DNA from: Patescibacteria group bacterium
GTDB lineage: Bacteria; Patescibacteriota; Patescibacteriia; 2-01-FULL-39-33
Length of the DNA stretch: 64,000 bases
Assembly (NCBI GenBank): GCA_041650895.1
Contig: JBAZKF010000001.1
Coordinates: 829,181-893,180 of the forward strand
Direction of reading: 5' to 3'
Below are positions 42,210 through 63,350 of the stretch, one piece after another. The position numbers and the translations under genes are program-made. The notes under the pieces are model-generated. The model saw only the letters and a program-made list of their open reading frames with translations, ran no database searches and had not been told where the DNA came from. Every line of letters starts with the position of its first letter. Positions within the stretch are counted from its first letter, which is position 1.

Positions 42210-42376
42210 TAAATAAAAAAACCGCCTTAAGCGGTTTTCTTATTTAATGAGGCGGGACTTGAACAGGTCAGAAGTGAGACAAGCGCGAGAGCGCGCAGTC
42301 GAACGTCGCCAACCTGCCAGTGACAGGTTGGCGCTGACCCTGGACGAGCTGAGCGAGAGCGAAGCGAGATGATATT

Positions 42377-42449: not shown

Positions 42450-43202
42450 ATGCGTTGGCAAAAGAAACAGGCTCAGGTTGAAGGGCTAGTTTATGACGCG
42501 TTGGCAGAATTATCTGAATGTTTGTCCATTGAATTAAGCTGTTACCCCGAGGTTTGGTGGATCGGTAAAACCGTCAAGTTTAATGATCTTGGTTTGCCTA
42601 AATCATTAAAAGACGAATTTGAAATAAGGTTGGCTGGCGGTTTGAGTTATTATTTGGTAAAGCAACAGATAATAATCATTGGTAGTAAATCAACCAGACA
42701 TTCCATTTTAGAGGAATCGTCACACGCTTTTAATTTTTTGTCTTCCGGTGTCTCTTATAAAGTAGCCAATAAGAGAAGAAATGTTAAGGATTATATGGCA
42801 CTGGGGATGCTGGTTGAGTTGATGGGGATGTTAGGTGCCAGATTGCTCGGCAGTGATTGGGAAAATCCCTATGAAGATTTCCCCGATCTGATGCTATTTG
42901 ATGATAAATCGAGAGATAATATTCGACGGGTGTTGCTTGAAGCTTTAGGTGAAAATATTGATTTTGAAGAGTTTTTTATCCACCAGCAGGATTATGGCTT
43001 AGCCGATAGGATTTATGCCAAATATCTAAGCGGTGAAGTCGGCTTGGCTTGGATTAGAAAGCTGTTCCTTGATGATTTTAGCGGGCCGGATGGAGCGATA
43101 AACGCCTATACCAGATTAAGGAATAGATTTTGGCCCAAAGAATCTAGCAAGTTGCAATTGAGCGACTTGCTTTTAATTTTATTAAATTGTCCGGCCAATT
43201 AG
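42450..43202 (+). CDS. Hypothetical protein
   Basis: 250-aa ORF with AGGAGA SD, no recognisable domain. Confidence 0.5.
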   Translation: MRWQKKQAQVEGLVYDALAELSECLSIELSCYPEVWWIGKTVKFNDLGLPKSLKDEFEIRLAGGLSYYLVKQQIIIIGSKSTRHSILEESSHAFNFLSSGVSYKVANKRRNVKDYMALGMLVELMGMLGARLLGSDWENPYEDFPDLMLFDDKSRDNIRRVLLEALGENIDFEEFFIHQQDYGLADRIYAKYLSGEVGLAWIRKLFLDDFSGPDGAINAYTRLRNRFWPKESSKLQLSDLLLILLNCPAN

Positions 43203-43291: not shown

Positions 43292-43711
43292 ATGTTGAAG
43301 AATATTCTTGGCTTTGCAAGGAAGAGTCAATCCAAAAGTCAGACCAAAAAAATTTTAGTCGTAGAAGATGATTCTTTGTTGTCTAAGGTGCTGGCGGAAA
43401 CCCTGAAAAAAGAGGGTTTTGAAGTTATGGTGGTTGATAACGGCAATGACGCCGTTACTATGATCAGGAAGTTTTTGCCTCAATTGATTCTATTGGATCT
43501 GGTTATTCCTGGCATTGACGGTTTTGCAGTGCTTAAAGAGTTGAAGGCTGACGACAAATTAAGGAGTATCCCCGTAGTTATTTTGTCCAATCTTGACGAG
43601 ATTGGCGATGTTAAATCAGTTAAAGCGCTGGGTGCCGATGATTATTTCATAAAAGCCAATACGGAAATGAAGAAGATCGTTGATTATGCCAAAAGAGCAT
43701 TAAAGGCTTAA
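43292..43711 (+). CDS. Single-domain response regulator receiver (CheY-like)
   Basis: KILVVEDD...LILLDLVIPGIDGF...IPVVILSNL...LGADDYFIKA. Confidence 0.75.
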   Translation: MLKNILGFARKSQSKSQTKKILVVEDDSLLSKVLAETLKKEGFEVMVVDNGNDAVTMIRKFLPQLILLDLVIPGIDGFAVLKELKADDKLRSIPVVILSNLDEIGDVKSVKALGADDYFIKANTEMKKIVDYAKRALKA

Positions 43712-43742: not shown

Positions 43743-44126
43743 ATGGCGAAGGAAGGAACAAAGATAATTTTGATGGTTGAAGACGATGAAGTCCTGCTGA
43801 GGGCGCTGTATTTGGTTTTTCACGAAGGCGGTTTTACTATTGCCACCGCCACCGATGGCGAAACGGCCCTGCGCATGGCCGAAAGGACAAAACCAGACAT
43901 TATCTTGCTGGATTTACTGTTGCCCAAGATGAACGGTTTTGAGTTTCTTAAGAATATTAAGGCCAATGCAAATTTACGGTCTATACCGGTAGTGGTTTTG
44001 TCTAATTTGGGTGATGATGACAATGTCAAGAAAGCTAAGGATTTGGGCGCTGTAGATTATTTTATCAAGGCCGATACTGATTTATCCGTCCTGAATGATA
44101 AAGTCAAGAAAATTTTAAACACTTAA
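43743..44126 (+). CDS. Single-domain response regulator receiver (CheY-like)
   Basis: ILMVEDDE...DIILLDLLLPKMNGF...IPVVVLSNL...LGAVDYFIKA. Confidence 0.75.
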   Translation: MAKEGTKIILMVEDDEVLLRALYLVFHEGGFTIATATDGETALRMAERTKPDIILLDLLLPKMNGFEFLKNIKANANLRSIPVVVLSNLGDDDNVKKAKDLGAVDYFIKADTDLSVLNDKVKKILNT

Positions 44127-44138
44127 AAATAACAATAG

Positions 44139-44960
44139 ATGAAGAACAAATGGTTAAATCTCGTGCTGCTTTTAACCAATCGCATCTATAATCGCAAACA
44201 ACTCATCGTAGGGCAAACTGGTTTGGAGGCAGTTTATAACATTTTCCTACTTTTTCTCTGGGAGATATTTTTAGCCGTGGTCTCTTTTCCTCTTTACCTG
44301 ACTCTGAAATCGCGCGAGGTCACAGCTTATTTTGCTGACCGGGGGTCGTATGCCCAGGTGAATTTTGACTATAATTTGCGTCGCATTTTGACTGTTACCG
44401 GTGTCGGCGCTATCGCCCTGGTTTGGCTGATAAAACTATTGATTATTGTTTTAACTCCGACTATTTTCGGCCCTTTGCAGCTTTACTCTGTGGGTGATTT
44501 ACAGCCGGCCGATATTACGCAAAAAGATTTGGTGGCAACTGACACTGGCATTCAGACGGCTCGCGTAGTGAGCACCATAGCCAGACCGGAGTTGCAGCAA
44601 GTCAAAAAAATTCGAGGGGGCAATTACGTCTTTTCGGGCATCGGACAACCGCTGACTACGGTTGTTTTATTATTGTCGGACAAACAGACTGCCGTGTATA
44701 CGGCCGACGCTGATAGCCAAGGCAAATGGCAGATAGAACAGTTACAGAGTAACTTTCGTTTAAGCGAGGGCAATCATTCGGTGTTGGTTTTTAATTACGA
44801 CAAACAACAGGGGATAAGGAGCGAGACCGCGCCAACTCAATATTTTAAAGTGGCTACGAACTGGTTTGATTTAGCCGCTAAGAACGTTGATTCCTTGGCT
44901 AATTGGTCGGTGGTCATTATTATCCTGTTAGGAATTTTCTTAACCATTCTAACCCTTTAG
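44139..44960 (+). CDS. Membrane protein, miniature paralog of the adjacent giant protein (N-terminal TM region + one Ig-like domain + C-terminal TM anchor)
   Basis: N-terminus (K.KWLNL...AVVSFPLYL...RRIL.V.G.GA..L...KLL) aligns with the giant protein N-terminus. VLLLSDKQTAVYTADADSQGKWQIEQ matches the giant C-terminal Ig-like segment VIVYIHSDQALIYRTHTDSQGNWRIDH. Hydrophobic C-terminal anchor. Confidence 0.6.
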   Translation: MKNKWLNLVLLLTNRIYNRKQLIVGQTGLEAVYNIFLLFLWEIFLAVVSFPLYLTLKSREVTAYFADRGSYAQVNFDYNLRRILTVTGVGAIALVWLIKLLIIVLTPTIFGPLQLYSVGDLQPADITQKDLVATDTGIQTARVVSTIARPELQQVKKIRGGNYVFSGIGQPLTTVVLLLSDKQTAVYTADADSQGKWQIEQLQSNFRLSEGNHSVLVFNYDKQQGIRSETAPTQYFKVATNWFDLAAKNVDSLANWSVVIIILLGIFLTILTL

Positions 44961-44962: not shown

Positions 44963-47900
44963 ATGTCCAAACGCTGGCTAAATTTATTTTTGTCTTATTC
45001 CGGCTATGTTTTCGGTTTGCGTCAAAAAGTCGTTAAGACCGGCCAGTGGTACAAGGTTTTGCCTTTAGCTGTAGAACTATTGGCGATAGAAGTGGTGTTT
45101 GCCGTTGTTTCTTTGCCCATGTATTTGTTGGTTCCGCCGGATCGGTTGCAAGAGCAAGGGATGATTTTTCCCAGCCGGCAGAAAGTCGCTAAGCCCCTGC
45201 GAGTTTATACTGTCAGGAGGAGAATCAGTTTGGCTACCGCATCCGGTGCGGGAGGCCTTTTTGTTTTGAAAATTTTAGTTGTCGGCGTCCTATCTTTTAT
45301 TTTTCTTGGTGCTATTCAAATTTTGGCTGATACGCAAGACTGGACATTCAGCACGCCAGGTGATTACGTCTATAACCCAGCTAAGATTGAAGTTACCGGA
45401 GGTGTGGCGCGGTTGAAAAATTTGGGTGGTCTGGTTTCCGGCAGCACTGTTAATTCCGGCTTTAACACCGATGCCAGCGGTTGGACTGCCGTTCCTGGCT
45501 GGGACAATGCTCCCGGTAAGACTAATACCGCTGCCTGGCAATCCTCCGGCGGTAACTCCGGCGGCTATGTCGATATTTATTTGGATGGAAAAAAGAATAA
45601 TGATTCCGCCGGTTACTGGTACCAGAGTTTTACTACCACAGTCAACTCTCCGGATACGGCCGTTTTGAGTCTGGATTGGAAGGCGGTTTCAGTCACTGGC
45701 GCGCCCGTTTCATACGTGCTTTATGCTTTTATCGGTACTGACAGCGGCAACCCGACAATCGGCGGGGCTAATCAAGTTTGGTCCAGTGGCAATATATCCG
45801 GCGCAACTTCTTTCGCCACTACAACCCCCATTGATATAAAATCCAAAGTAACGGCGGCTGGTACTTATTACTTGAAGATAGCCGCTTATGTAAATTGCCA
45901 GGCTTCCGTTGACTGCAAGGCTACCGCCGGTTTTGATAATGTAATTGTTAATTGGTCAAAAACTACAGTCAGTTATGCTTCCGACAAGCCGACTACGACC
46001 CCGGTGAGCTCTTTAACTATGACTAAGGCCATCAGCTGGAATTCTTTCGCAGAAACGGCGACTAAAAACGGCGGTGAGATTTATTATCAATTGTCGGCCG
46101 ATAATGGCTCCAATTGGCAATACTGGAATGGTTCAGCTTGGGCGACTACTACCTTAGCGACCAATTATAATACGGCGACTGACGTCAACTCTAATATTTC
46201 CAAATTCACTACTTCTACCAATCAGATAAAATGGCGCGCTTATTTGTCCAGCGACGGTACTCAGCAGGTGATTCTGGACAATATTACTATTACTTATACC
46301 CAGAATCAGCGGCCCCAGGTGCAATCTCTGGCGCCGGCGCAGAATACGGCCTACGGCTATGTCCATGTCAATTATAACTTGCAAGATGCAGAAGGTGACC
46401 TGTCCAGTTTGACGGCTTATGAATATTCCTTGTCCGGCACTTTTGCCGATGCCGTAACTATGACCGCCTCCACCACTGATCCGGCTCATAGCGGAGTTTC
46501 CGGACTGTCGGCGTCTTCCGGCGGTACGCCCCATGTTTTTGTCTGGGATGCTCGGTCGCAGTTGGGTAATATCGCGACTACCACCTATGTCCGTTTGCGG
46601 CCTAATGACGGCATTGGCAATGGCATTTATACCACTTCCTCGGTCTTTACTGTGGACTATGTTTCTTCCACTGTTTCCAATATTTCAGTTTCTCAACCCT
46701 TAGCTACAACGACTGTTACTATTGCTTATGATTTATTTGATAATACCGCCGATAATATTTTAGTGGAAATGCAAATATCGGGCGATGATGGCAGTACCTG
46801 GACGGTGCCGTCGACGAGCGTTAGCGGAGCTGTTGGCGCGGGGGTTGCTGCCGGCAATAGCAAAGTGATTTATTGGAATGCCGGGGCTGATTATCCCAAC
46901 CAACAAAAAAATAATCTTCAAGTGCGCATCCGAGCTAAGGATAAATGGCAGAATCAGGGTGCTTACGTTTCCTCAGCTAATTTTTCTCTTGATACTTTGC
47001 CGGCGGCGATTTTGTCTGTGGCCGATCTTAAGGCTCAGCCTAATGCCGGTGATACCGCAGTTTTAATCGGCGGATCATTTACCGAGGTTAATCCCGACAC
47101 CAATCATTTTTATGTGGCGATTAATAGCGGTAGTTACAGTTCCTCTACGGCCGGGGATAGCGATACGGCTACTCCGTCTAATCAGTCTACGGCTGTCGGT
47201 ACTACTTTAGATGGCAATGACTATATTTCTAAAGTTAAGATTATTCATACTGATGACTACTCCAATGTAGGAACCAATGAAAACTTGACTCCGGATGCTG
47301 CTTATAAGTATGTTAAACCTTATACGCCATCAGCCCCGACTCTGAGTAATCCGGTTACCACGCGTCTGGATTTGACGATTAATCCGCATGTCGGCGAGGC
47401 CAGCGATGTGCCATACGCCCTGTTTGAAACGACGACTTCCAAATACGTACAAAGCGACGGTACCTTAGGTGTTAATCCGGTTTGGCAAATCATTGGTACC
47501 GGCTCCGGCCAATGGGGCAATAATACCGGTTCAGCAGGTATGGTCAGAATAACCGGTTTGTCTTCGCCGGTGGCTAATTATATTTTTAAGGTTAAATCGC
47601 GCAATCCCAGCGATTCCGGTCATGCGGCATCTTCGGAATCGTCTTTTTCCGCTTCGGCGCAAATCACCAACACCGCTCCCGGCATTGCTTTGAGCAGTTA
47701 CGCCCAAACAACCGATGGTTCGCAGTACAGCCCTATTGCCTATACGGGTACGGATGGGCAAGGTGATATTACTTACCTGAGTGCTTACGAGTATTCGGTT
47801 GACGGTTCCACCTGGCATACCATGACGGAAAAATCAGGTGTGGGCAGCAACGGCACGACCAATCTGGTATTTTTGCCAACCGGAAGTGCTTACAGTTTTG

Positions 47901-50900
47901 TTTGGGATTCGGGTGCGGATTTGTCGAATATGGAAACAACCACGGCCAAGGTCCGCTTAAGGGGCAATGACACCTTGACTGACGGCAGTTTAAGTACCTC
48001 GGCCAACTTTGTTTTAGATAATAAGGCCCCGGTCGTCTCGGCCGTAGTTGCCAGCCAAACTGCCGGCGATAGAACCATAGCAATCACTTATGATTTAACC
48101 GATGCCAATAATTCTCTGATTCAGATAGATATTTCCAGCGACGGCGGAACGACTTGGACTGTCGCCACCTCAAGCTTAACCGGCGCTGTCGGTTCGGGGG
48201 TAACGTCGGGAACTGGCAAAAGCGTTACTTGGAACGCGGGTACGGACTATAATAATCAATACAATACTAATATCATGGTAAGGATTCGGGCTCGTGATAC
48301 CTTCGGTAATCAGGGGTCTTATAGTAGTTCTGCTATTTTTACTGTTGATACGCACGCGCCGATGTTGTCTAATCTTTCCGCCAATCAAGATAGCAACGCT
48401 AACACTTTCACTTTCCATTACGACGTGTCCGAAGACGCGGGCAATATTAATACATTATTGGCGATTTCCGCCGATGGGGGGTCAACTTGGACCGTCGCCA
48501 CATCCTCGGCGTCTGGCGATTTGGGCGTAGCTGTTGCGCCGGGCACCAGTAAAACCATTACCTGGGATGCCGGCGCTGATTACAATAATCAGGAAAAGAC
48601 TAACATGCAATTTCGTTTAGTCGCGACTGATGGTTTTAGCAATAGTAGCTCTCTGGCTTCCTCTGATTTCTCTTTAGATACTAAAGCTCCGCGTATAACC
48701 AATGTTTCAGCCACTCAACCTTTGGGTGAGACCAGTGTGACAGTTTCTTATGATTTGGCCGACCAGAACAATTCCCTGGTAATGTTAGATATTTCTAACA
48801 ATAGCGGAGCAACTTGGACGGTTGCCACCTCAACCTTAAGCGGTGAAATCGGCATCGGCAGGACTCCGGGGATAGGCAAAATAGTCACTTGGAATGCGGC
48901 GGCTGATTTCCCCAATCAAAATCTGTCTACGATGCAAGTGCGAGTCAGGGCTCTGGATGTTTTTGCCAATCAATCGGCTAATGTGCCCTCAACTGATTTT
49001 TCCCTTGATACTTTGCCGCCGGCGGTTAGTGTCATAGCCAATTTGTCAACTCAGCCTTTGGCCGGAGCAACAACGACGTTGATCAGCGGTTCTTTTACCG
49101 AGGCTAACCCTAATATTAATAATTTTTATGTGGCGATTAATGGCGGTGCTTACGGATCGGCCACTATTGGGAGCGGTAATACTGCTTCACCGGCTGATCA
49201 GGCTACGGCCGTCGGCGCTACTCTGGATGGCAATGATTATGTTTCTCAAGTTAAAGTTGTCCATACCGACGATTACGGTCAATCTGTAACCAATGAGAAT
49301 AATTCGCCTAATTCGGCTTACAAATATGTGAAGCCCTACACGCCGTCGGCGCCGACCGTCAATAACCCCAGCGTCGGCACCGTAGATGTTTTAATCAATA
49401 AAAATCCGGCGGAAATAGACGGTTTGGAATACGCTATTTATGAAAGTTCCCAGAACAAATATGTGCAAAGCGATGGAACCTTAGGTATCAGCCCCGTTTG
49501 GCAGGTGATTGGCACCGGTTTTTTTCAATGGGGATTTTACTCGGGCGTAAGCGGCAAAATTAACATTAGTGGTTTAACTCTTGATTCTTACTACTATCAA
49601 TTTCAGATTAAATCGCGTAATAGTAGCGACGCCTCTCATGCCGCCTCCAGCGATAGTACTTTGTCCAGCGGCGCTTCCTCGGTTAACCAGTCGCCGACTA
49701 TTGTCATTGATTCAGTCGCCCAAACGACTGACGGCACTAAGTATGTGGTTATCAACTATACCGGTTTTGATTTGGAAAGCGAAACCACCACCTTAGTTAC
49801 CTATCAGTATTCTACTGATAATGCTATTTGGCACACCATGACTGAAAAGTCCGGTGTGGGCTCGGACGGCAAGATTGGTTTATCTTTTATTTCTGTCGGA
49901 ACAGCGCATGATTTTATGTGGGATGTTGGTGTGGATTTTCCCAACACCGAAGATGAAACGGTTTACGTCAGGTTACAGGCTGATGACAGTACTAGTAGCG
50001 GCGGAGTAACGGCTTCTTCGGCATTTATTGTTGATACCAAAAACCCCATAACAGCTTCGGTAACCGCCAGCCAGGATGCCAATTCAAATAATGTGTCGGT
50101 GAGTTATAATTTGACTGACTTATCCGATTCTTATATTGAGTTTGATGTTTCATCCGATAGCGGATCAACCTGGACTGTCGCAACTTCTACGGCTTCCGGA
50201 GATGTCCATGATAATGTCACGCCGGGTAGCGGCAAGGCTATCAGTTGGAATCCAGGTATGGATTATTCCGGCCAGGAATCAGGCACGATGAGGGTGCGAG
50301 TGGGCGCCAGAGACAATTTTGGCAATAGCGGATCCTTGGTTTCATCTGTTAATTTTGCCGTTGATAGTAAGGCCCCGGTTTTTGCCAATATTTCCGCGGC
50401 GCAGGTCGTTAGCAGCAGTTTAGTGTCTATAAGTTATGATTTTAGCGATGCCAACAGTTCTGTTGTGGCTATGGATATTTCATCGGACGGAGGCGGTTCT
50501 TGGGATGTTGCTTCCTCAAGTGTTAGTGGTGCCATTGGCGCAGGCATAACAACCGGCAATAGCAAAATTATTATTTGGGACGCCGGAGCGGATTTCCCTA
50601 ATCAGCAGGTTAATAACATGCAGATTCGTCTGCGAGCCGTTGACGCTTACGCCAATGCGACCGGCAATGTCGGTTCCAATTTGTTTGCCATTAATACCCA
50701 AGCCCCAGTGATTAATACTGTAACCGCAGAACAAGTCGTGGGGTCCGATAATGTCGTCATAACTTATAACCTGTTTGACAGCGATAATGTAGTTATCAGT
50801 GTGGGTATTTCCAGCGATGGTGGCGCCACTTGGACCGTAGCTACCACTACCTTGACAGGCGATGTTGGTTACGGAGTCGCACCAGGACTGGGCAAAACAA

Positions 50901-53900
50901 TTAATTGGAATCCGGGAGTTGATTTCAACAGCCAACAGAATGGCAGTATGAAGGTTCGTATCCGTGGCACCAATACTTACGGTAATAGTAGCGCTTATGC
51001 CGTTTTGGTTGACACTTTTAGCGTGGACACTCTGGCCCCGACGATTTTGACGATTGCGGATTTGACTGCTCAGCCACTTGCCGGCGATACGAGCGCGACT
51101 GTTAGCGGGTCGTTTACCGAGGCCAATCCAACCTCTAATGAGTTTTTAGTCGCTTTCAGCAGTGATGTCTATTCGGCTACTACCACCGGAGAAAGCAATA
51201 CGGCGACTCCGGCTGATCAGGCGGTGCCGGCAAGCGGGGCGCTTACTGGTCATGATTACATTTCTAAAGTTAAGCTGGTAGAAACCGATAATTACGGCCA
51301 TACAAGAATAAACGAGAATACTTCTCCTACAGCGAGTTACAAATACGTCAAACCGTATACGCCGGGAGCGCCGACGGTTAATAATCCGCAGAATACTACA
51401 GTGGATGTAACAATTAATTCGGCTTTCGGCGAGGCTAGCGATGTGCCTTATGTCATTTATGAGGTTTCCACCGGACAATACGTGCAGAGCAATGGCACTT
51501 TGGGTGTTAGCGCTGTCTGGCAGACGCTCGGCACCGGCGCCGGCCAATGGGGCCAGGGGAGCGGTATTAGCGGTCAAGTTACTATTAGCGGTTTGTTCTC
51601 GCCGGTGGCTAATTATAGTTTTAAGATCAAGTCACGCAACCCGAGCGATGCGGCACATCTGACGACTTCCGAATCTGATTTTTCTACAATAACGGGAATT
51701 GCTAATACTGCTCCGGCAATTAATATTTCAAGCGCAACTCAACAAGCCAGTGGCGGTTATGTGTTAATCAATTATATCGGTACGGATGCGCAAAATGATA
51801 CTAATGATTTAACTGTTTTTGAATATTCCATTGATAACGCCAATTGGCAGGTTATGACCGAAAAATCGGGGGTGGGTTCAAACGGTACCTCCAGCTTGAT
51901 TTTCTCTTCGGTTGGCACGGCTTACATTTTTGCTTGGGATATAGCGACTGATTTGCCTAATCAGGAGAATTCCACAGTTTATGTACGCTTAAAGTCATCT
52001 GATACTTTGGCTGACAGTAACTTGGCGGTGTCCTCGGCTTTTTATGCTGATACTTTGGGGCCGGTTATTTCCAATATTGATTTAACGCAAACGCCAGGTA
52101 CGGGATTGGCCGTAATTATTTATGACTTGATCGATAATTCCGGAGCTAGCAATACTGTTAGTTTATTAATTTCCAATGATGGCGGTTTGACTTATACTGT
52201 GCCCGTTACTACGGCCAGTGGCGATGTCGGTAATGATGTTACGGCTGGCGTCGGCAGGAGTATTAGTTGGAATCCGCAAATTGACTTGGCCAATCAGGAG
52301 AATTCTGCGGTTAAAGTCAAACTTCAAGGTGCGGATCGCTATGGCAATGCCGGTTTAATTTCTATTTCTGACAATTTTACCGTTGATACCAAGGGGCCGG
52401 TGGTAAGCGGTGTTTCCGCCGGCCAATCAGCCGGTACGACGGATGTGGTCATAAATTATAACTTGGCTGATATTACGCCGGCCGGTAATCTGGTTGAATT
52501 TAATATTTCTGATGATGGTGGGGCTACTTGGACAGTATCTACAACCACTAGAAGCGGACAAATCGGTTCCGGTCAAACCATCGGGGCAAAGGCGTTTATT
52601 TGGTCGGCCGGTACGGATTTCGTTGGTCAAGATTTATCCAGTATGAGAGTTCGCGTCCGCGCTAAGGATTATTTCGGTAATCAAGGCGCTTATGTTGCCT
52701 CTGGTAATTTTGCTTTAGATACCAAAGCCCCGGTTATTTCTGGCGTCTCCGCCAGTCAAATCGCCGGCACAGATAGCGTAGCGGTTAGTTATGATTTAGG
52801 AGAAAATGCTGATGTTGCCTGGGATATCTCTAGTGATGGCGGTTTGACTTGGACGGTTATTAAAACTACAGCCGTTGGGGATTTGGGCGCGGTAACAGCA
52901 GGCAATAATAAATTAGTCACCTGGAATACCGGCGTTGATTTTATTAACCAAGAGAATTCCCATATGCGGGTCCGTTTCAGCGGCACGGATAGTTTTGGCA
53001 ATGTCAGCACTTATTATGAATCGGCTGATTTTTCAGTTGATACAGGGGCGCCCTTGGGACTTGCTTCCTTGAGTAAATTTTCGGAAACCGCCACAACCAT
53101 TACTATGAATTGGCAGACGGCAACTGATGCGAATTTTAATCACTATGAATTATGGCATGGCGCAACGGAAAGCGATGTGGTAAATCGCACGGGCACAGCC
53201 GACAAATGGAGCGTAATTGATGATGTTAATTTGTCTAACTCCTTAACCATATCGACGGTTATTACCGGTTTGAATATTACCAATAATTATTATGTTAAGA
53301 TTTGGGCCATAGATGATTATGGCAACGAAGCAACGGTTGCCCAGCTTAACGTTTTTGCCCCAGTAACTCCGCCGGTTGTTTCGCCTGTAATCCCGCCGGT
53401 AGTCGGCGGTGGCGCTATTTTGGTGCCCGATACAATTGCGCCGGTTAAACCACTTTTGAACTCGTTGGATTCACCAACTAACAGCACAAGGATTGCCATC
53501 GGCGGTTTGTCTGAGCCGGGCTCAAACATCGACTTGTTTGATAATGGCGTTTTGTTTGCCCGGCTTAATAACAGCGCCGATAGCGGCGGCAGGTTCAGTC
53601 AGATTTTTAATTTTTCGTCAGGCAATCATTCCTTAACTGTTCGGGCAACTGATAGATCAGGCAATATCAGCCAGTTGTCCGATCCAGTCAACTTGCTTAT
53701 TATCGGCGTGGCCCCGGCCGCCCCGATAATCTTAAACCCGATTAATAATTCGGCTATTGCGGAGGCAACTCCGACAATCACTGGCGTAACTGAACCGTTA
53801 GGCGAAGTGCTTATTGCTTTGGACGGTCGAAGTAGGTTTACGGTGACAGCAGATTTATCCGGCGCTTGGAATTTTAAGTTGCCTAGCGCCTCGGCTCTAG

Positions 53901-54508
53901 TGGATGGTCGCCATACTATTAGCGTTACTGTTCGCGATCAAGCCGGCAATGTCAGTAATCCAACCGTCATAAGTATTAATAAAGTTGTTGCCTTACCGGC
54001 GTCAGTCACTCCGATTATAACCGTGGCCGGCATTACGCCTATTCAGCCGGTTCCCACGGCTCAATTAGTGGAATTGAACGCCCAAGCGGTGGAATTGGCC
54101 GGCATACCGGTGCCGCAAGTCACTAATATACAAACCATAGCTGTCGGCGATACTTTAAGTTTCTCCGGCACCTCTTTGCCTAATCAAGATGTCATCGTCT
54201 ATATTCATAGCGATCAAGCCTTGATTTATCGCACTCATACTGATAGTCAGGGCAACTGGCGCATTGACCATTCGCAAGACATTACAGAGTTGTCTCCTGG
54301 CCAGCATACGATTTTTGCCGTCGCTCTGGACTCCACGGCGCAAATTAAGAGCCGACCCAGTCCGGTTAGCACCTTTACTGTTAGAAGAAATTTTTGGGTG
54401 ATGATTTATCGTTACTTAAATTGGCAGACAACGGTCATAACCTTAGTCATTTTAGTGGCTACTATTTTCTGGCTTTATCGGGCCAGAAAGAGACAGTTGA
54501 TCGGTTAA
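44963..54508 (+). CDS. Giant (3181 aa) membrane-anchored repeat protein: N-terminal 2-TM region, ~10 Asp-box (SxDxGxTW) beta-sandwich modules, FN3-like and Ig-like domains, C-terminal TM anchor
   Basis: ATG at 44963 (MSKRWLNL) 3 nt after the upstream stop. Ten SxDGGxTWTV motifs. Three ~2-kb super-repeats starting near 46990, 49000 and 51030, each containing YKYVKPYTPSAPT. C-terminal FN3 then Ig-like segments, then hydrophobic anchor + RARKRQ. Confidence 0.85.
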   Translation: MSKRWLNLFLSYSGYVFGLRQKVVKTGQWYKVLPLAVELLAIEVVFAVVSLPMYLLVPPDRLQEQGMIFPSRQKVAKPLRVYTVRRRISLATASGAGGLFVLKILVVGVLSFIFLGAIQILADTQDWTFSTPGDYVYNPAKIEVTGGVARLKNLGGLVSGSTVNSGFNTDASGWTAVPGWDNAPGKTNTAAWQSSGGNSGGYVDIYLDGKKNNDSAGYWYQSFTTTVNSPDTAVLSLDWKAVSVTGAPVSYVLYAFIGTDSGNPTIGGANQVWSSGNISGATSFATTTPIDIKSKVTAAGTYYLKIAAYVNCQASVDCKATAGFDNVIVNWSKTTVSYASDKPTTTPVSSLTMTKAISWNSFAETATKNGGEIYYQLSADNGSNWQYWNGSAWATTTLATNYNTATDVNSNISKFTTSTNQIKWRAYLSSDGTQQVILDNITITYTQNQRPQVQSLAPAQNTAYGYVHVNYNLQDAEGDLSSLTAYEYSLSGTFADAVTMTASTTDPAHSGVSGLSASSGGTPHVFVWDARSQLGNIATTTYVRLRPNDGIGNGIYTTSSVFTVDYVSSTVSNISVSQPLATTTVTIAYDLFDNTADNILVEMQISGDDGSTWTVPSTSVSGAVGAGVAAGNSKVIYWNAGADYPNQQKNNLQVRIRAKDKWQNQGAYVSSANFSLDTLPAAILSVADLKAQPNAGDTAVLIGGSFTEVNPDTNHFYVAINSGSYSSSTAGDSDTATPSNQSTAVGTTLDGNDYISKVKIIHTDDYSNVGTNENLTPDAAYKYVKPYTPSAPTLSNPVTTRLDLTINPHVGEASDVPYALFETTTSKYVQSDGTLGVNPVWQIIGTGSGQWGNNTGSAGMVRITGLSSPVANYIFKVKSRNPSDSGHAASSESSFSASAQITNTAPGIALSSYAQTTDGSQYSPIAYTGTDGQGDITYLSAYEYSVDGSTWHTMTEKSGVGSNGTTNLVFLPTGSAYSFVWDSGADLSNMETTTAKVRLRGNDTLTDGSLSTSANFVLDNKAPVVSAVVASQTAGDRTIAITYDLTDANNSLIQIDISSDGGTTWTVATSSLTGAVGSGVTSGTGKSVTWNAGTDYNNQYNTNIMVRIRARDTFGNQGSYSSSAIFTVDTHAPMLSNLSANQDSNANTFTFHYDVSEDAGNINTLLAISADGGSTWTVATSSASGDLGVAVAPGTSKTITWDAGADYNNQEKTNMQFRLVATDGFSNSSSLASSDFSLDTKAPRITNVSATQPLGETSVTVSYDLADQNNSLVMLDISNNSGATWTVATSTLSGEIGIGRTPGIGKIVTWNAAADFPNQNLSTMQVRVRALDVFANQSANVPSTDFSLDTLPPAVSVIANLSTQPLAGATTTLISGSFTEANPNINNFYVAINGGAYGSATIGSGNTASPADQATAVGATLDGNDYVSQVKVVHTDDYGQSVTNENNSPNSAYKYVKPYTPSAPTVNNPSVGTVDVLINKNPAEIDGLEYAIYESSQNKYVQSDGTLGISPVWQVIGTGFFQWGFYSGVSGKINISGLTLDSYYYQFQIKSRNSSDASHAASSDSTLSSGASSVNQSPTIVIDSVAQTTDGTKYVVINYTGFDLESETTTLVTYQYSTDNAIWHTMTEKSGVGSDGKIGLSFISVGTAHDFMWDVGVDFPNTEDETVYVRLQADDSTSSGGVTASSAFIVDTKNPITASVTASQDANSNNVSVSYNLTDLSDSYIEFDVSSDSGSTWTVATSTASGDVHDNVTPGSGKAISWNPGMDYSGQESGTMRVRVGARDNFGNSGSLVSSVNFAVDSKAPVFANISAAQVVSSSLVSISYDFSDANSSVVAMDISSDGGGSWDVASSSVSGAIGAGITTGNSKIIIWDAGADFPNQQVNNMQIRLRAVDAYANATGNVGSNLFAINTQAPVINTVTAEQVVGSDNVVITYNLFDSDNVVISVGISSDGGATWTVATTTLTGDVGYGVAPGLGKTINWNPGVDFNSQQNGSMKVRIRGTNTYGNSSAYAVLVDTFSVDTLAPTILTIADLTAQPLAGDTSATVSGSFTEANPTSNEFLVAFSSDVYSATTTGESNTATPADQAVPASGALTGHDYISKVKLVETDNYGHTRINENTSPTASYKYVKPYTPGAPTVNNPQNTTVDVTINSAFGEASDVPYVIYEVSTGQYVQSNGTLGVSAVWQTLGTGAGQWGQGSGISGQVTISGLFSPVANYSFKIKSRNPSDAAHLTTSESDFSTITGIANTAPAINISSATQQASGGYVLINYIGTDAQNDTNDLTVFEYSIDNANWQVMTEKSGVGSNGTSSLIFSSVGTAYIFAWDIATDLPNQENSTVYVRLKSSDTLADSNLAVSSAFYADTLGPVISNIDLTQTPGTGLAVIIYDLIDNSGASNTVSLLISNDGGLTYTVPVTTASGDVGNDVTAGVGRSISWNPQIDLANQENSAVKVKLQGADRYGNAGLISISDNFTVDTKGPVVSGVSAGQSAGTTDVVINYNLADITPAGNLVEFNISDDGGATWTVSTTTRSGQIGSGQTIGAKAFIWSAGTDFVGQDLSSMRVRVRAKDYFGNQGAYVASGNFALDTKAPVISGVSASQIAGTDSVAVSYDLGENADVAWDISSDGGLTWTVIKTTAVGDLGAVTAGNNKLVTWNTGVDFINQENSHMRVRFSGTDSFGNVSTYYESADFSVDTGAPLGLASLSKFSETATTITMNWQTATDANFNHYELWHGATESDVVNRTGTADKWSVIDDVNLSNSLTISTVITGLNITNNYYVKIWAIDDYGNEATVAQLNVFAPVTPPVVSPVIPPVVGGGAILVPDTIAPVKPLLNSLDSPTNSTRIAIGGLSEPGSNIDLFDNGVLFARLNNSADSGGRFSQIFNFSSGNHSLTVRATDRSGNISQLSDPVNLLIIGVAPAAPIILNPINNSAIAEATPTITGVTEPLGEVLIALDGRSRFTVTADLSGAWNFKLPSASALVDGRHTISVTVRDQAGNVSNPTVISINKVVALPASVTPIITVAGITPIQPVPTAQLVELNAQAVELAGIPVPQVTNIQTIAVGDTLSFSGTSLPNQDVIVYIHSDQALIYRTHTDSQGNWRIDHSQDITELSPGQHTIFAVALDSTAQIKSRPSPVSTFTVRRNFWVMIYRYLNWQTTVITLVILVATIFWLYRARKRQLIG

Positions 54509-57547: not shown

Positions 57548-57934
57548 ATGATGAAAAAAATGATGAAAAAATTGTTAGTCATTGATGATGAACCGATCGT
57601 GCTTAAAGCTTTGTCGTCACAGTTTGATGCCAAAGAGATTGAGGTGTTGCTTGCCAAGGATGGCGCTGAAGGTTTAAAATTGGCTAAGAAAGAAAAGCCT
57701 GATTTAATCTTATTGGACCTGGTAATGCCTAAAATGGACGGATTGGAAATGTTAGCTAAGTTGCGCAAAGATAAATGGGGCAAGAAAGCGGAAGTAGTGA
57801 TTCTGAGTAACTTGAGTGATTCGGCCAAGGTAGCTCAAGCTGTTGCTTTAGGGACCTTTGAATATTTGGTTAAGGTGGACTGGAATGTGGCTGATGTGGC
57901 CACTAAGGTGAAAAAGAAGCTGGGATTAAAATAA
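57548..57934 (+). CDS. Single-domain response regulator receiver (CheY-like)
   Basis: KLLVIDDE...DLILLDLVMPKMDG...VILSNL, 128 aa. Confidence 0.75.
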   Translation: MMKKMMKKLLVIDDEPIVLKALSSQFDAKEIEVLLAKDGAEGLKLAKKEKPDLILLDLVMPKMDGLEMLAKLRKDKWGKKAEVVILSNLSDSAKVAQAVALGTFEYLVKVDWNVADVATKVKKKLGLK

Positions 57935-58080
57935 TTAAATTAAGCATTGTTTAGTCAACTCGGAAGAAATTTTCGGGTTGACTTTTAGTTATCCCCAGAG
58001 CAGATTATGCGACTTGTTTTTGAATGGCAAAGCATGTTATAATATATTAATAACTAACCATAAAACATTGGTTAAAAAAT

Positions 58081-58443
58081 ATGGTCGCTAAGAAAAGAAT
58101 TCTCATCGCCGAGGATGAGAAATCCATGGCTAACGCCTTGGAACTAAAACTGAATAAATCCGGCTTTGAAGCTAAGGCCGTTTATGACGGCGAGCAGGCT
58201 TTGGCCACTGTGACTGAAGGTGGCTATGACTTGATGCTGTTGGATTTGATGATGCCGAAATTAGATGGTTTTGGCGTATTGGAAGGCATAAAAAAGAAGA
58301 ATCTTAAGATCAAAGTTATTATTACTTCTAATTTGTCTCAAGAAGAAGATATCAAGAAGGCCAAAGATTTGGGGGCTATTGACTACATCGTTAAGTCGGA
58401 TACGCCTATTCAGGCGATCGTAGAAAAAATTAAAAGTCTTTGA
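58081..58443 (+). CDS. Single-domain response regulator receiver (CheY-like)
   Basis: RILIAEDE...DLMLLDLMMPKLDGF...VIITSNL...LGAIDYIVK, 120 aa. Confidence 0.75.
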   Translation: MVAKKRILIAEDEKSMANALELKLNKSGFEAKAVYDGEQALATVTEGGYDLMLLDLMMPKLDGFGVLEGIKKKNLKIKVIITSNLSQEEDIKKAKDLGAIDYIVKSDTPIQAIVEKIKSL

Positions 58444-58474
58444 TTAAGTTATCATCTTAATTCCATGCTTTAAG

Positions 58475-60121: not shown

Positions 60122-60133
60122 AGAGATTATTTT

Positions 60134-61360: not shown

Positions 61361-61361
61361 T

Positions 61362-61829
61362 ATGCCTAGGGAAACAAAAACAAAACATCTCGGTTCAAAC
61401 GGTTTTACTTTAGTAGAGGTGTTGTTATCCTTGGCTCTTATAGCTGTTATTTCCGTGATGGCTATTCCGGTTTATCAATCGTTTCAGACCAAAAACGATT
61501 TAGCCGTCGCCACCAATAGCTTGGTTCAATCCTTGCGCCGCGCTCAGATTTTATCACAGAGCATGGCCGGAGACAGTGGTTGGGGGGTATTTATAACCAC
61601 TGGCAGTGTCGTGTTGTTTCGCGGCTCGTCTTACGGTAGTCGTGACATCCTCTATGATGAGAGCTCCACCGTGCCAACGACAATCACTCCAAGTGGTTTG
61701 AGCCAAGTTGTGTTTGATAAGTTTACCGGCAAGCCGGTCGCCACCGCCACAGGAAATATTTTATTAGTTTCCGTGGCTCACGAAACCAGCACCGTTAATA
61801 TTAACAGTCGAGGGACGATAACTTATTGA
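61362..61829 (+). CDS. Pseudopilin / minor pilin with prepilin-type N-terminal cleavage/methylation motif
   Basis: G-FTLVEVLLSLALIAVI class III signal (GFTLxE) followed by hydrophobic helix. Confidence 0.75.
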   Translation: MPRETKTKHLGSNGFTLVEVLLSLALIAVISVMAIPVYQSFQTKNDLAVATNSLVQSLRRAQILSQSMAGDSGWGVFITTGSVVLFRGSSYGSRDILYDESSTVPTTITPSGLSQVVFDKFTGKPVATATGNILLVSVAHETSTVNINSRGTITY

Positions 61830-61830
61830 T

Positions 61831-62424: not shown

Positions 62425-62427
62425 CTT

Positions 62428-63319: not shown

Positions 63320-63350
63320 GAATACATTAACATAAAATAAGATAAAATTT

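What the first reader, a model, noticed from the sequence alone, without database searches (positions are those of the whole stretch)
44139..44960. Small upstream gene is a condensed paralog of the giant protein (shared N-terminal TM region, one Ig-like domain, C-terminal anchor)
MKNKWLNLVLL...AVVSFPLYLTL...RRILTVTGVGAIALVWLIKLLII aligns with MSKRWLNLFLS...AVVSLPMYLLV...RRISLATASGAGGLFVLKILVV of the giant protein. The segment VLLLSDKQTAVYTADADSQGKWQIEQLQSNFRLSEGNHSVLVF matches the last Ig-like unit of the giant protein. Its stop codon lies 3 nt before the giant gene's start. It could be a partner, chaperone or assembly subunit sharing the same membrane topology, or a decoy or alternative minimal form.
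Basis: seen in the sequence. Interest (0 to 1): 0.55.

Follow-up and report, generated by a model that had tools for sequence, protein, structure and literature searches.

The report
Mini-paralog of a giant CPR adhesin
The 273-residue gene is a real, strongly conserved "headless and stalkless" copy of the two membrane-anchoring ends of the 3,181-residue surface adhesin encoded 2 nt downstream. The pair sits in a conserved signalling operon found across many ultrasmall Patescibacteria (CPR), so it is a good but still uncharacterised lead on how these bacteria attach to hosts.

Summary
The small protein (44139-44960) matches the giant (44963-54508) at both ends:
- N-terminal membrane module: BLASTP E 3e-6, profile-profile E 2.4e-18.
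- Last Ig-like domain plus juxtamembrane segment: BLASTP E 6e-12, profile-profile E 4.4e-22.

Cross-controls and hydropathy-preserving shuffles exclude compositional similarity. The C-terminal TM helix alone is not significant.

The small gene is not a remnant. There are over 200 orthologues of 272-275 aa (50-89% identity), with dN/dS of 0.06-0.09. In about 33 of 40 genome loci it lies a median 4 nt upstream of a giant of about 900 to over 5,600 aa that carries the same two end modules.

The conserved unit is RR-RR-small-giant-PAS histidine kinase-RR. The giant's extra 2,900 aa are a CBM-like head, three ~670-aa super-repeats and Ig domains. The head is 40-48% identical to heads of type IV pilin-like proteins. 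The N-module has no Pfam or NCBIfam match.

The best reading is inferred, not shown: the small protein co-assembles with the giant through the homologous membrane modules, forming the base of a signalling-coupled adhesin. The main rival is that the N-module is a long cleaved export leader. The N-module topology is unresolved.

The parts
43146..43171 (+). Terminator-like hairpin just upstream of the module (10-bp stem plus T-run), a possible 5' boundary of the transcription unit
   Evidence: This is a consensus scan only, and site counts were near shuffle expectation.
43292..43711 (+). RR1: single-domain CheY-like response regulator, with acidic pocket, phospho-acceptor Asp and conserved Lys present
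   Evidence: Pfam Response_reg E 3.6e-22. Alignment with CheY. Orthologue immediately upstream of RR2-small in nearly all loci.
43743..44126 (+). RR2: second single-domain CheY-like response regulator, ending 12 nt before the small gene
   Evidence: Pfam Response_reg E 1.6e-23. 57-88% identical orthologues directly upstream of the small gene in the loci.
44139..44960 (+). Small gene (273 aa): N-terminal membrane module + linker + one Ig-like domain + C-terminal TM. This is the finding itself.
44142..44468 (+). Small protein N-module (aa 2-110). It comprises helix 2-24 (basic, amphipathic), hydrophobic helix 29-55 (invariant E42 and S49-x-P51-x-Y53), a beta-hairpin loop 62-73 ending in D77-Y78..R81-R82, and hydrophobic helix 78-110 (W96, invariant K99).
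   Evidence: AF2 secondary structure, hydropathy, conservation. No Pfam or NCBIfam family.
44589..44852 (+). Small protein Ig-like beta-sandwich (aa 151-238), closest to the last Ig unit of the giant
   Evidence: AF2 shows seven strands at pLDDT 85-91. Foldseek hits to Bap C region, SiiE and FN3. Pfam Big_13 is sub-threshold at 18.6 bits. BLASTP E 6e-12 to giant 3048-3169.
44886..44954 (+). Small protein C-terminal TM helix (aa 250-272). The protein ends at the end of the helix.
   Evidence: A few distant family members add a basic C-tail.
44963..54508 (+). Giant gene (3,181 aa)
44963..45325 (+). Giant N-module (aa 1-121), homologous to the small N-module. It ends in the conserved Q-x-L-L-A / (A/D)-T-Q-D-W junction, a possible signal peptidase I site.
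45326..46300 (+). Giant head (aa 122-446): a CBM-like jelly-roll domain plus a second beta-sandwich. It holds the only two Cys of the protein (312, 318) and is shared with type IV pilin-like proteins.
   Evidence: AF2 pLDDT above 95. Foldseek hits to CBM11, CBM4, gingipain adhesin domain and phage receptor-binding proteins. 45% identity over 332 aa to the pilin-like P0295.
46301..54103 (+). Giant stalk: three ~672-aa super-repeats (KPYTP at aa 785, 1457, 2130) of Asp-box-containing beta-sandwich and FN3-like domains, then Big_13/Big_6 Ig units
54104..54505 (+). Giant C-module (aa 3048-3181): last Ig-like domain, juxtamembrane NFW...LNW segment, TM helix and basic tail YRARKRQLIG. Homologous to small aa 147-271.
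54546..57530 (+). Soluble histidine kinase: 5 PAS domains + HisKA + HATPase_c, with no TM segment. It follows the giant in most loci where the downstream DNA is visible.
57548..57934 (+). RR3: single-domain response regulator after the kinase
57953..57983 (+). Strongest terminator-like hairpin of the region (14-bp stem), a likely 3' end of the RR1-RR2-small-giant-HK-RR3 unit
58081..63812 (+). Neighbouring type IV pilus cluster: RR4, PilB (T2SSE), PilC (T2SSF) and at least three prepilin-type genes. This adjacency is specific to this lineage and is not part of the conserved module.
   Evidence: It is absent next to the module in L034.

Best explanation
**What it is (shown).** The 273-aa gene is an ancient, functional paralog of the giant gene. 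It consists only of the giant's two end pieces:
- a ~115-aa N-terminal membrane module: a basic amphipathic helix plus two long hydrophobic helices, carrying an invariant mid-helix Glu and an invariant mid-helix Lys;
- a ~125-aa C-terminal module: the membrane-proximal Ig-like domain, a juxtamembrane helix and a TM anchor.

The giant has about 2,900 aa inserted between these modules. The insert is a CBM-like receptor-binding head that also occurs on type IV pilin-like proteins, followed by a long beta-sandwich stalk.

The two genes are separated by 2 nt. They form the core of a conserved Patescibacteria unit: RR1-RR2-small-giant-PAS histidine kinase-RR3.

**How it most likely works (inferred).** Both proteins are inserted in the cytoplasmic membrane with their Ig and stalk parts outside and their C-termini inside. 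The small protein co-assembles with the giant through the homologous membrane modules and membrane-proximal Ig domains. In this model the base of the adhesin is a hetero-oligomer of several compact subunits and few giant ones. This would give a stable membrane platform without crowding several ~100-nm stalks together.

The conserved cytoplasm-facing elements of the module (N-terminal helix, basic loop) are the probable contact point for the output-less CheY-like regulators and the soluble kinase encoded around them. That would couple adhesion to signalling in one or both directions.
For: **Homology of both modules.** BLASTP E 3e-6 and 6e-12. hhalign gives 99.0% / E 2.4e-18 and 99.5% / E 4.4e-22, with negative cross-controls. 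Block-shuffle z-scores are 7.5-26. Two separate AF2 models give the same N-module secondary structure.

**A functional gene.**
- 208 homologues, nearly all 272-275 aa, at 50-89% identity.
- dN/dS of 0.06-0.09 at dS of about 1.
- An exhaustive profile search finds about 55 clusters of small-type proteins down to about 21% identity, and 27 clusters of giants (909-5,686 aa). All the giants have N-module + head + C-module.

**Strict pairing.** The RR-RR-small-giant order holds in about 33 of 40 genome loci from lineages labelled Buchanan-, Magasanik-, Uhr-, Falkow-, Parcu- and Paceibacteria; the giant itself was seen in all of these lineages except Paceibacteria. The stop-to-ATG gap has a median of 4 nt, and 20 of 33 gaps are 6 nt or less. 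Even the most divergent pair (L043, 25% identity) keeps small, RR and giant adjacent.

**Body outside, C-terminus inside.**
- The head is homologous to the heads of pilin-like proteins.
- The ectodomain has 4.4% K+R against 16% in the kinase, and only two Cys, six residues apart.
- The giant has a basic C-tail, as do some members of the small family.

**Charged residues in both hydrophobic helices.** E42 and K99 are invariant in both families. This is typical of helices that must pack against partners.

**Link to signalling.** All four RRs keep the phospho-acceptor residues and lack output domains. The kinase has no TM segment. An N-module-only ORF in L044 is again next to an RR2-like regulator. 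Terminator-like hairpins bracket the six genes.
Against: - No direct evidence of physical interaction. Multimer prediction was not possible.
- The mirror-tree partial correlation between small and giant N-modules is only 0.27-0.30.
- My covariation analysis was too noisy to place the helices.
- The AF2 pTM of the small protein is 0.46, so the packing of its three helices is not established.
- The N-module topology is unresolved. The N-tail and the inter-helix loop are both net positive, so one basic segment must face outward or one helix does not span the membrane.
- If helix 2 is uncleaved, the giant's receptor-binding head would sit at the membrane rather than at the tip. That fits the rival (cleaved leader) better.
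- One locus (L033) has an intact small gene with no giant downstream.
- Promoter and terminator scans were near chance expectation.
Confidence: 0.4

Rival explanations
1. Cleaved export leader. The shared N-module is an unusually long, conserved leader. Its second hydrophobic helix acts as the signal sequence and is cut by signal peptidase I (giants: Q-x-L-L-A | A/D-T-Q-D-W). The mature giant would then be a classical type I adhesin: head at the distal tip, stalk, and C-terminal TM anchor. The small protein would simply be a second, short substrate of the same route, with its Ig stub anchored by the C-terminal TM. It would not need to bind the giant. The released N-module might persist as a separate membrane peptide.
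For: The head starts within about 7 residues of the end of helix 2 (AF2: H78-114, first strand at 122). It is a receptor-binding type of domain that sits on pili in its other context, so a distal position makes functional sense. The basic RR(K/R) motif immediately precedes helix 2, and a conserved small residue at -1 with aliphatic at -3 (LLA) follows it in 32 giants. Conserved N-terminal extensions of signal peptides are known for very large surface proteins (ESPR, YSIRK, KxYKxGKxW), from established knowledge.
Against: The hydrophobic stretch of helix 2 is about 28-35 residues with a central Lys. That is far longer than cleavable h-regions and typical of signal anchors. The small family has no comparable A-x-A-like site; its conserved motif is YGPLQLY. 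A mere leader would not be expected to keep an extra hydrophobic helix with an invariant Glu, an invariant Lys and a conserved N-helix across 21%-identity relatives. None of the ESPR, YSIRK or KxYKxGKxW motifs is present. No signal-peptide predictor was available.
Confidence: 0.22
2. Independent signalling or regulatory protein. The small protein does not bind the giant. It works in parallel as a headless version that engages the same cytoplasmic partners (RR1/RR2 or the kinase). It might set a baseline, or compete with the giant for regulators or for membrane sites, as a conserved regulatory 'decoy'.
For: Two RRs precede two N-module proteins in almost every locus. An N-module-only ORF is paired with an RR in L044. 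An intact small gene persists without an adjacent giant in L033. The N-helix and loop are highly conserved in both families.
Against: This does not explain why the small protein keeps the membrane-proximal Ig domain and juxtamembrane segment of the giant under strong constraint. The near-universal 1-6 nt coupling to the giant gene suggests co-production. There is no evidence for RR binding.
Confidence: 0.15
3. Ion-coupled membrane machine. The invariant mid-membrane Glu and Lys would make the oligomerised N-modules a proton- or ion-driven device, analogous in logic to GldLM or MotAB stators. It would tension or move the giant adhesin under control of the CheY-like regulators.
For: E42 and K99 are invariant in both families and across all distant relatives. 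CheY-like regulators are always adjacent. Ig-like domains lie directly above the membrane, as in GldM (from established knowledge).
Against: There is no sequence or fold match to any stator family. The Glu-Lys pair could be a simple intramolecular salt bridge. Known 5:2 motors are built from non-homologous subunits. The support is purely analogical.
Confidence: 0.05
4. Artefact: chance or compositional similarity, or the small ORF is a decaying fragment of a duplicated giant gene.
For: The C-terminal TM helix alone is not significantly similar (z about 2).
Against: Profile-profile E-values are 1e-18 and 1e-22 with negative controls. Block-shuffle z-scores are 7.5-26. There are 208 length-invariant orthologues, and dN/dS is 0.06-0.09.
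Confidence: 0.01

Closest known systems
Giant membrane-anchored Ig-repeat adhesins of monoderm bacteria (e.g. Staphylococcus aureus Ebh, Bap-type proteins)
   Same: A very long extracellular chain of beta-sandwich repeats. A ligand-binding region lies at the N-terminal end of the ectodomain. A C-terminal TM helix with a basic cytoplasmic tail replaces a sortase signal. The small protein's Ig domain hits the Bap C region and SiiE in Foldseek.
   Different: There is no YSIRK or LPXTG motif. Instead of a normal signal peptide there is an extra conserved ~115-aa N-terminal membrane module. A dedicated mini-paralog is encoded 2 nt upstream. The genes are embedded in a two-component operon. No Pfam or NCBIfam family covers the N-module.
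Type IV pilin-like proteins with large C-terminal heads in Patescibacteria (annotated PilV/PulG-like; P0295, P0316)
   Same: The giant's residues 122-446 are 40-48% identical to the two-domain head of these 600-830 aa pilin-like proteins. In this window a pilB-pilC-pilin cluster is adjacent.
   Different: Neither the giant nor the small protein has a prepilin leader or the G|(F/M)TLxE motif. The head is attached to a different membrane module and a ~2,600-aa stalk. The small protein lacks the head altogether.
LapA/LapD/LapG-type inside-out control of a giant adhesin (Pseudomonas)
   Same: The logic: a giant repeat adhesin whose surface display is coupled to a cytoplasmic signalling system encoded nearby.
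   Different: No RTX repeats or T1SS signal. The Ca_tandemer match is below cut-off (27.8 bits against 50). No LapD/LapG-like genes are present. Signalling here is by a PAS kinase and CheY-like regulators. The resemblance is functional analogy only.
GldL/GldM and other ion-driven stator complexes
   Same: Membrane helices with invariant charged residues, and Ig-like domains directly outside the membrane.
   Different: No sequence or fold similarity was detected. Here the two subunits are paralogs of each other. This is an analogy from memory, not a tested relationship.
KirBac-type channels (slide helix-TM1-loop-TM2-Ig-like domain)
   Same: The same order of secondary-structure elements, with weak whole-chain Foldseek hits (E about 7e-4).
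   Different: TM-score is 0.19 and rmsd about 25 Å. There is no T-x-G-Y/F-G filter. The loop is only 15-27 aa. The Ig domain is extracellular and followed by a third TM. The resemblance is superficial.
Pam pili of CPR bacteria (bioRxiv 10.64898/2026.03.03.709456)
   Same: CPR-specific surface structures built from Ig-like folds and implicated in host contact.
   Different: According to that paper's abstract, Pam pilins polymerise by donor-strand exchange with chaperone/usher-like factors and occur mainly in Saccharimonadia and Microgenomatia. The present proteins are TM-anchored, sit in a two-component operon, and occur in Buchanan-, Magasanik- and Uhrbacteria-type lineages. No homology test was run.

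Membership tests
Bacterial Ig-like domain Big_13 (PF19077) | Pfam score at or above the gathering threshold (27 bits) | tested here: not met
   The small protein scores 18.6 bits, E 0.0027, over residues 165-222. The giant's unit 2931-3003 scores 48.2 bits and does meet the threshold.
Bacterial Ig-like domain Big_13 (PF19077) | Seven-stranded Ig-like beta-sandwich fold | tested here: met
   AF2 shows strands 151-238 at pLDDT 85-91. Foldseek hits to Bap C region, SiiE and FN3 at E 3e-5 to 1e-3.
The uncharacterised ~273-aa Patescibacteria family found here (no database name) | Full-length match: N-module (W5-L6, K20, E42, S-x-P-x-Y, R81-R82, K99) + Ig domain + D251..N255 + terminal TM; length 272-275 aa | tested here: met
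   The window protein is identical to P0001 (WC473_04375).
Type IV pilins / pseudopilins (N_methyl, PF07963) | Prepilin leader with G|(F/M)TLxE and an N-terminal hydrophobic alpha-helix | tested here: not met
   No PF07963 hit in the small or giant protein. The motif is absent. Only the giant's head domain is shared with pilin-like proteins.
Sortase-anchored (LPXTG) surface proteins | C-terminal LPXTG-type motif + TM + basic tail | tested here: not met
   No LP.[TSA]G anywhere in either protein.
RTX / T1SS giant adhesins (LapA, SiiE type) | GGxGxD nonapeptide repeats and a C-terminal T1SS signal; neighbouring ABC/MFP/TolC genes | tested here: not met
   No GG.G.D motif. Ca_tandemer scores 27.8 bits against a cut-off of 50. 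No T1SS genes among the neighbours.
Extended or special signal peptides of giant surface proteins (ESPR, YSIRK, KxYKxGKxW) | The eponymous N-terminal motifs | tested here: not met
   YSIRK and KxYKxGKxW: no motif match by regex. For all three, no Pfam hit on the N-terminal regions; ESPR was not searched by regex.
Signal peptidase I substrates (cleavable Sec signal peptide) | n-region, 7-20-residue h-region, c-region with small residues at -1 and -3; predicted or observed cleavage | tested here: inconclusive
   The basic n-region (RRK) and a conserved LLA|(A/D)TQDW are present in giants. However, the h-region is about 28-35 residues with a central Lys. No predictor or proteomic data were available.
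Ion-driven stators (MotA/ExbB/TolQ, GldL/GldM) | Sequence or fold membership of the stator families; non-homologous A5B2 subunits | tested here: not met
   No Pfam or NCBIfam hit. No Foldseek hit to stator structures among the top matches.
Inward-rectifier-type K+ channels (KirBac) | P-loop with T-x-G-Y/F-G selectivity filter between the two TM helices | tested here: not met
   The motif is absent. Foldseek TM-score is 0.19 with rmsd about 25 Å.

The most novel reading that the evidence does not exclude
The small and giant proteins form a new kind of bacterial adhesion receptor, loosely integrin-like. It would be a hetero-oligomer of paralogous membrane modules that mechanically links a ~100-nm, pilin-headed adhesin to CheY-type regulators and a soluble PAS kinase. 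Host contact would be sensed, or adhesin engagement controlled, directly at the membrane. In the most extreme version the invariant Glu and Lys make the module ion-coupled, so that it does work on the stalk. This would be a CPR-specific apparatus for episymbiotic attachment, with no described homologue.
Probability: 0.15. Interest if true: 0.8.

Novelty: new variant of a known kind. Interest (0 to 1): 0.5.

Why it matters
Patescibacteria/CPR make up a large share of bacterial diversity and are thought to live attached to host cells. Outside Saccharibacteria, the molecules that mediate and regulate attachment are almost unknown.

This work defines a widely conserved six-gene module. It contains a ~100-nm class adhesin with a pilin-type receptor-binding head, a mini-paralog that keeps only the adhesin's membrane-proximal parts, three output-less CheY-like regulators and a soluble multi-PAS kinase.

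It also defines a new ~115-aa membrane module with invariant intramembrane Glu and Lys that has no database family. If the two paralogs co-assemble and talk to the regulators, this would be a tractable entry point to how ultrasmall bacteria sense and control host contact. The minimal form, 273 aa and highly conserved, is ideal for structural and interaction studies. If they do not co-assemble, the result is still a clean annotation of two large families of 'hypothetical proteins'.

Tried and rejected
1. **Compositional similarity.** Rejected by cross-controls in hhalign and by block shuffles. Only the C-terminal TM helix alone fails significance.
2. **Pseudogene or remnant.** Rejected by length invariance and dN/dS.
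3. **Database families for the N-module.** Pfam at E up to 10 and NCBIfam at E up to 1 gave nothing credible. The only hit was a spurious Gemini_AL3 match at 17.6 bits.
4. **Fold search of the small protein.** It returned only generic Ig/FN3 hits. The KirBac matches have TM-score 0.19 and are judged superficial.
5. **Mirror-tree co-evolution** of small and giant N-modules, controlling for RR1/RR2. Partial r was 0.27-0.30, which is too weak to use.
6. **Mean-field DCA on 194 small-family sequences.** The first run was dominated by gap artefacts. The corrected run was noisy, with physically implausible TM-Ig pairs ranking as high as the N-helix/TM1 pairs 23-35 and 18-40. It was not used.
7. **Promoter and terminator scan.** Counts were near shuffle expectation. 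Only two hairpins are noted as possible boundaries.
8. **Type IV pilus linkage of the module.** PilB/PilC adjacency holds in this window but not in L034. It is therefore not part of the conserved core.
9. **A third paralog downstream of the divergent giant in L043 (ORF 792-1637).** No similarity was found.
10. **Literature.** No paper describing this pair or module was found. The CPR Pam-pilus preprint and the giant-genes preprint concern different systems.
11. **A fused small+giant construct for AlphaFold.** Considered, but not submitted. Without a paired alignment the result would be uninterpretable, and only two jobs were available.
Full report
**1. The observation**

The window has an ATG ORF at 44139-44960 (273 aa) on the + strand. 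A very long ORF follows in another frame. Its conserved start is the ATG at 44963, reading MSKRWLNL..., and it runs for 3,181 aa with a stop at 54506-54508.

The small gene's TAG (44958-44960) is followed by 'ct' and then the giant's ATG. The gap is therefore 2 nt, not 3.

BLASTP of the two proteins gives two collinear, composition-adjusted matches:
- Small 147-271 against giant 3048-3169: 28% identity, E 6e-12.
- Small 1-115 against giant 1-120: 26% identity, E 3e-6.

The small protein's Ig region also hits two other Big_13 units of the giant much more weakly (E 0.005 and 0.019). It is therefore specifically closest to the last unit.

I tested this in two ways.
- **Profile-profile comparison.** I built profiles of each end from orthologues in over 30 loci and compared them with hhalign. 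N against N gave probability 99.0%, E 2.4e-18. C against C gave 99.5%, E 4.4e-22. The cross comparisons gave 5% and 0.3%.
- **Block shuffles.** I shuffled the small protein globally and within 10- or 5-residue blocks, which keeps the hydropathy profile. The observed Smith-Waterman score exceeded all 1000 shuffles each time. For the N-module, z was 14, 11 and 7.5. For the C-module, z was 26, 17 and 11.

The shared positions are specific: W5-L6-N7, K20-Q21, E42, S49-x-P51-x-Y53, Y78, R81-R82 and K99. The one weak element is the C-terminal TM helix, which alone is not significant (z about 2). No other copy of either module exists in the window.

**2. The small gene is a conserved gene, not a remnant**

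A search of 5.8 billion proteins returned 208 homologues. Nearly all are 272-275 aa long and 50-89% identical. They are annotated only as hypothetical proteins of Patescibacteria, Candidatus Buchananbacteria or Magasanikbacteria. The window's own protein is WC473_04375, on a 957,791-bp contig.

Mean column identity is 70% over 111 sequences. Against the two closest orthologues, dN/dS is 0.06-0.09 at dS of about 0.9-1.1. The giant's N-module gives similar values of 0.06-0.12.

An exhaustive HMMER profile search of 1.84 billion cluster representatives found 667 proteins at E ≤ 1e-3. Among the best 150:
- About 55 are small-type proteins with N- and C-modules. They go down to 21-30% identity and about 255-285 aa (alignment).
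- 27 are giants of 909-5,686 aa. Every one carries N-module + head + C-module.
- One is a 378-aa intermediate.
- The rest are unrelated Ig-repeat proteins.

Across this whole range K20, E42, P51, P150, G167 and G195 are invariant, and W5, S49, Y53, Y78, R81, R82, W96 and N255 nearly so. K99 is invariant in the 111-sequence core alignment.

**3. The pair and its operon are conserved**

Forty loci from GTDB species genomes, plus four from metagenomes, were analysed. The genomes are labelled Buchanan-, Magasanik-, Uhr-, Falkow-, Parcu- and Paceibacteria.

In about 33 non-redundant loci the order is RR1-RR2-small-giant, all on one strand. Giant lengths vary widely: 1,109, 1,159, 1,651, 1,672, 1,876, 1,903, about 1,960, 2,140, 2,689, about 3,180-3,260, and over 3,300. 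One gene call reaches 4,674 aa. The small protein stays at 273-275 aa throughout.

The distance from the small stop to the giant's conserved ATG has a median of 4 nt. It is 6 nt or less in 20 of 33 loci, and ranges from -4 to 227 nt.

Where DNA downstream of the giant is visible, a PAS-HisKA-HATPase kinase and a further single-domain RR usually follow. Examples are L005, L006, L007, L014, L015, L026, L037 and L038. In L034 the kinase and two RRs lie upstream instead.

In the window the gaps between genes are as follows.

| Junction | Gap (nt) |
|---|---|
| upstream ORF (42450-43202) to RR1 | 89 |
| RR1 to RR2 | 31 |
| RR2 to small | 12 |
| small to giant | 2 |
| giant to HK | 37 |
| HK to RR3 | 17 |
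| RR3 to next gene | 146 |

Terminator-like hairpins lie at 43146-43171 and 57953-57983, the latter with a 14-bp stem. I infer one transcription unit. The scans themselves are weak evidence.

All four RRs in the region keep the acidic pocket, the phospho-acceptor Asp, the Ser/Thr and the Lys, and have no output domain. The kinase has five PAS domains and no TM segment.

The type IV pilus genes that follow in the window are PilB, PilC and three N_methyl pilins. They are not next to the module in L034, so that adjacency is lineage-specific.

There are exceptions to the pairing:
- L033: intact small gene, no giant downstream.
- L035: a complete 896-kb chromosome in which the small gene is cut at residue 227 and abuts the second half of the kinase.
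- P0279: a giant fragment fused to the kinase C-terminal half.
- L043: a 25%-identical small-like gene with one RR and a divergently transcribed 1,566-aa giant.
- L044: a 117-aa N-module-only ORF followed by an RR2-like regulator.

**4. Anatomy**

| Element | Small protein, AF2 with 111-sequence alignment (pLDDT 76, pTM 0.46) | Giant residues 1-480, AF2 (pLDDT 85.5) |
|---|---|---|
| N-terminal helix | 2-24 | 2-25 |
| Hydrophobic helix 1 | 29-55 | 29-56 |
| Inter-helix loop | beta-hairpin 62-73 | disordered |
| Hydrophobic helix 2 | 78-110 | 78-114 |
| What follows | disordered 117-128, helix 129-140, seven-stranded sandwich 151-238, helices 242-248 and 250-272 | two beta domains, 122-334 and 344-447, at pLDDT above 95 |

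The two N-modules therefore have the same architecture.

Foldseek places the small protein's sandwich with Ig/FN3 domains of adhesins: Bap C region 7dm0, SiiE 2yn3. It places the giant's first ectodomain with carbohydrate-binding modules (CBM11, CBM4, CBM22, CBM61), the gingipain 'cleaved adhesin' domain, and phage tail-fibre or tailspike receptor-binding domains. TM-scores are modest, so this is a fold class, not an assignment.

The most informative result in this part came from a protein search with giant residues 1-480. Residues 122-446 are 40-48% identical to the heads of 600-830-aa proteins. These carry a prepilin N-terminus (…GQSLLELI…), have PF07963, and are annotated PilV/PulG-like or 'prepilin-type'. 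For example, P0295 is 45% identical over 332 aa, E 9e-75. The giant thus displays the same head that other Patescibacteria proteins carry on a type IV pilin.

The rest of the giant is three ~672-aa super-repeats (KPYTP at 785, 1457, 2130) with ten Asp-box motifs, then Big_13/Big_6 units.

**5. Orientation in the membrane**

The ectodomain is extracellular. Four lines of evidence support this:
- homology to pilus-borne heads;
- 4.4% K+R against 16% in the cytoplasmic kinase;
- only two Cys in 3,181 residues, six apart within the head;
- paired-Cys inserts in the L003 orthologue.

The giant's C-tail is basic (YRARKRQLIG and equivalents in 22 orthologues). The few small-family members that have a tail also have a basic one. 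The C-terminus is therefore inside, and helix 2 must run from inside to outside, preceded by its RR/RRK motif.

What remains unresolved is the N-terminal third. Both the N-tail (net +4 in the small protein, +6 in the giant) and the inter-helix loop (+2 and +6) are basic. Either the basic N-helix lies on the outer face, or it inserts alongside helix 1, or helix 1 does not fully span. My covariation attempt hinted at antiparallel N-helix/helix-1 contacts (pairs 23-35 and 18-40), but it was as noisy as impossible pairs and is not used.

E42 lies at the middle of helix 1, and K99 lies about one turn from the middle of helix 2. An intramembrane salt bridge, within or between subunits, is a reasonable inference.

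**6. Mechanism**

*Shown:* paralogy of both end modules, deep conservation, co-location and tight coupling of the pair, the two-component context, an extracellular body and a pilin-type head.

*Inferred best explanation (confidence about 0.4):* the small protein is a compact subunit that co-assembles with the giant through the homologous membrane modules and membrane-proximal Ig domains, forming the base of the adhesin. The output-less CheY-like regulators and the soluble kinase act on, or listen to, the conserved cytoplasm-facing parts of that module.

Three arguments support this:
- Paralogs that descend from a self-associating ancestor commonly form hetero-oligomers.
- Invariant charged residues inside both hydrophobic helices call for partner helices.
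- The retained parts are exactly those nearest the membrane.

*Main rival (about 0.22):* the N-module is a long leader cleaved at the conserved LLA|(A/D)TQDW. This would put the head at the tip of a C-terminally anchored stalk, which is functionally attractive. Three observations count against it: the 28-35-residue hydrophobic stretch, the absence of a comparable site in the small family, and the conservation of the whole module.

*Other rivals:*
- An independent regulatory or decoy role (about 0.15).
- An ion-coupled machine (about 0.05).
- Artefact (below 0.01).

**7. Comparison with known systems and novelty**

The giant works like the membrane-anchored Ig-repeat adhesins of monoderm bacteria. 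It fails the defining tests for LPXTG, RTX/T1SS, YSIRK/ESPR-type and pilin families. The small protein's Ig domain is below the Big_13 threshold by sequence but is Ig-like by fold. The N-module has no family.

I found no paper describing the pair. The CPR Pam pilus is a different system.

I rate this a new variant of a known kind: a giant adhesin with an undescribed membrane module, a dedicated mini-paralog and a dedicated two-component system. Interest is moderate at 0.5. The finding is solid, widespread and relevant to CPR host attachment, but the mechanism is still inferential.

Noticed in passing
window 45326-46300 (giant aa 122-446): The giant's two-domain head is 40-48% identical to the heads of 600-830-aa prepilin-type (PilV/PulG-annotated) proteins of Patescibacteria. 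Its fold resembles CBMs and phage receptor-binding domains. The same adhesive head therefore appears to be displayed either on a type IV pilin or on this membrane-anchored stalk.
   Followed up: partly
L035 10001-12117 (OW818634.1, an 896-kb chromosome-level record); protein P0279: Two independent deletion variants. In L035 the small gene is cut at residue 227 and abuts the second half of the kinase, with the giant absent. P0279 fuses giant residues ~238-560 to the kinase C-terminal half. These could be real losses of the adhesin in some populations or assembly collapses.
   Followed up: no
L044 2327-3079: A 117-aa ORF consists of the N-module only, with Arg instead of Lys in helix 2. It is directly followed by an RR2-like response regulator, in a MAG labelled Peribacteria. 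This suggests the N-module can exist alone and stays linked to a CheY-like protein.
   Followed up: partly
L033 8921-13038: An intact 273-aa small gene with RR1/RR2 upstream but no giant downstream. A P-loop NTPase-like ORF and small ORFs follow instead. RR1 here carries a ~100-aa Lys/Glu-rich N-terminal extension.
   Followed up: partly
L010, L018, L024, L028, L029, L030, L039: Seven MAG records titled 'uncultured Gammaproteobacteria bacterium' carry this otherwise Patescibacteria-specific RR-RR-small-giant module at 48-63% identity. Their taxonomic labels are probably wrong.
   Followed up: no
window 46301-54103: The giant's stalk has three ~672-aa super-repeats (KPYTP at aa 785, 1457, 2130) and ten Asp-box (S-x-D-x-G-x-T-W) motifs. 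Giant length varies from about 900 to over 5,600 aa among orthologues while the small protein's length is fixed. This suggests stalk length is evolutionarily tunable.
   Followed up: partly
window 58081-63812: A type IV pilus cluster lies immediately downstream of the module: another single-domain RR, PilB/T2SSE, PilC/T2SSF and at least three N_methyl pilin genes.
   Followed up: partly
window 42136-42238: tRNA-Pro (CGG) at 42136-42210 is the only RNA gene detected in the 64-kb window. It is followed by a terminator-like hairpin at 42218-42238.
   Followed up: no
window 42450-43202 and 39951-41303: The 250-aa ORF just upstream of the module has no Pfam or NCBIfam match. The 450-aa ORF before it carries DUF6938 and a weak glycosyltransferase-like signal.
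   Followed up: no
L005 2625-12231; L039 5234-10743; L029 10001-10823: In some MAGs the giant (L005, L039) or the small gene (L029) is split into two ORFs. These are probably frameshift or assembly errors within repeats rather than biology.
   Followed up: no
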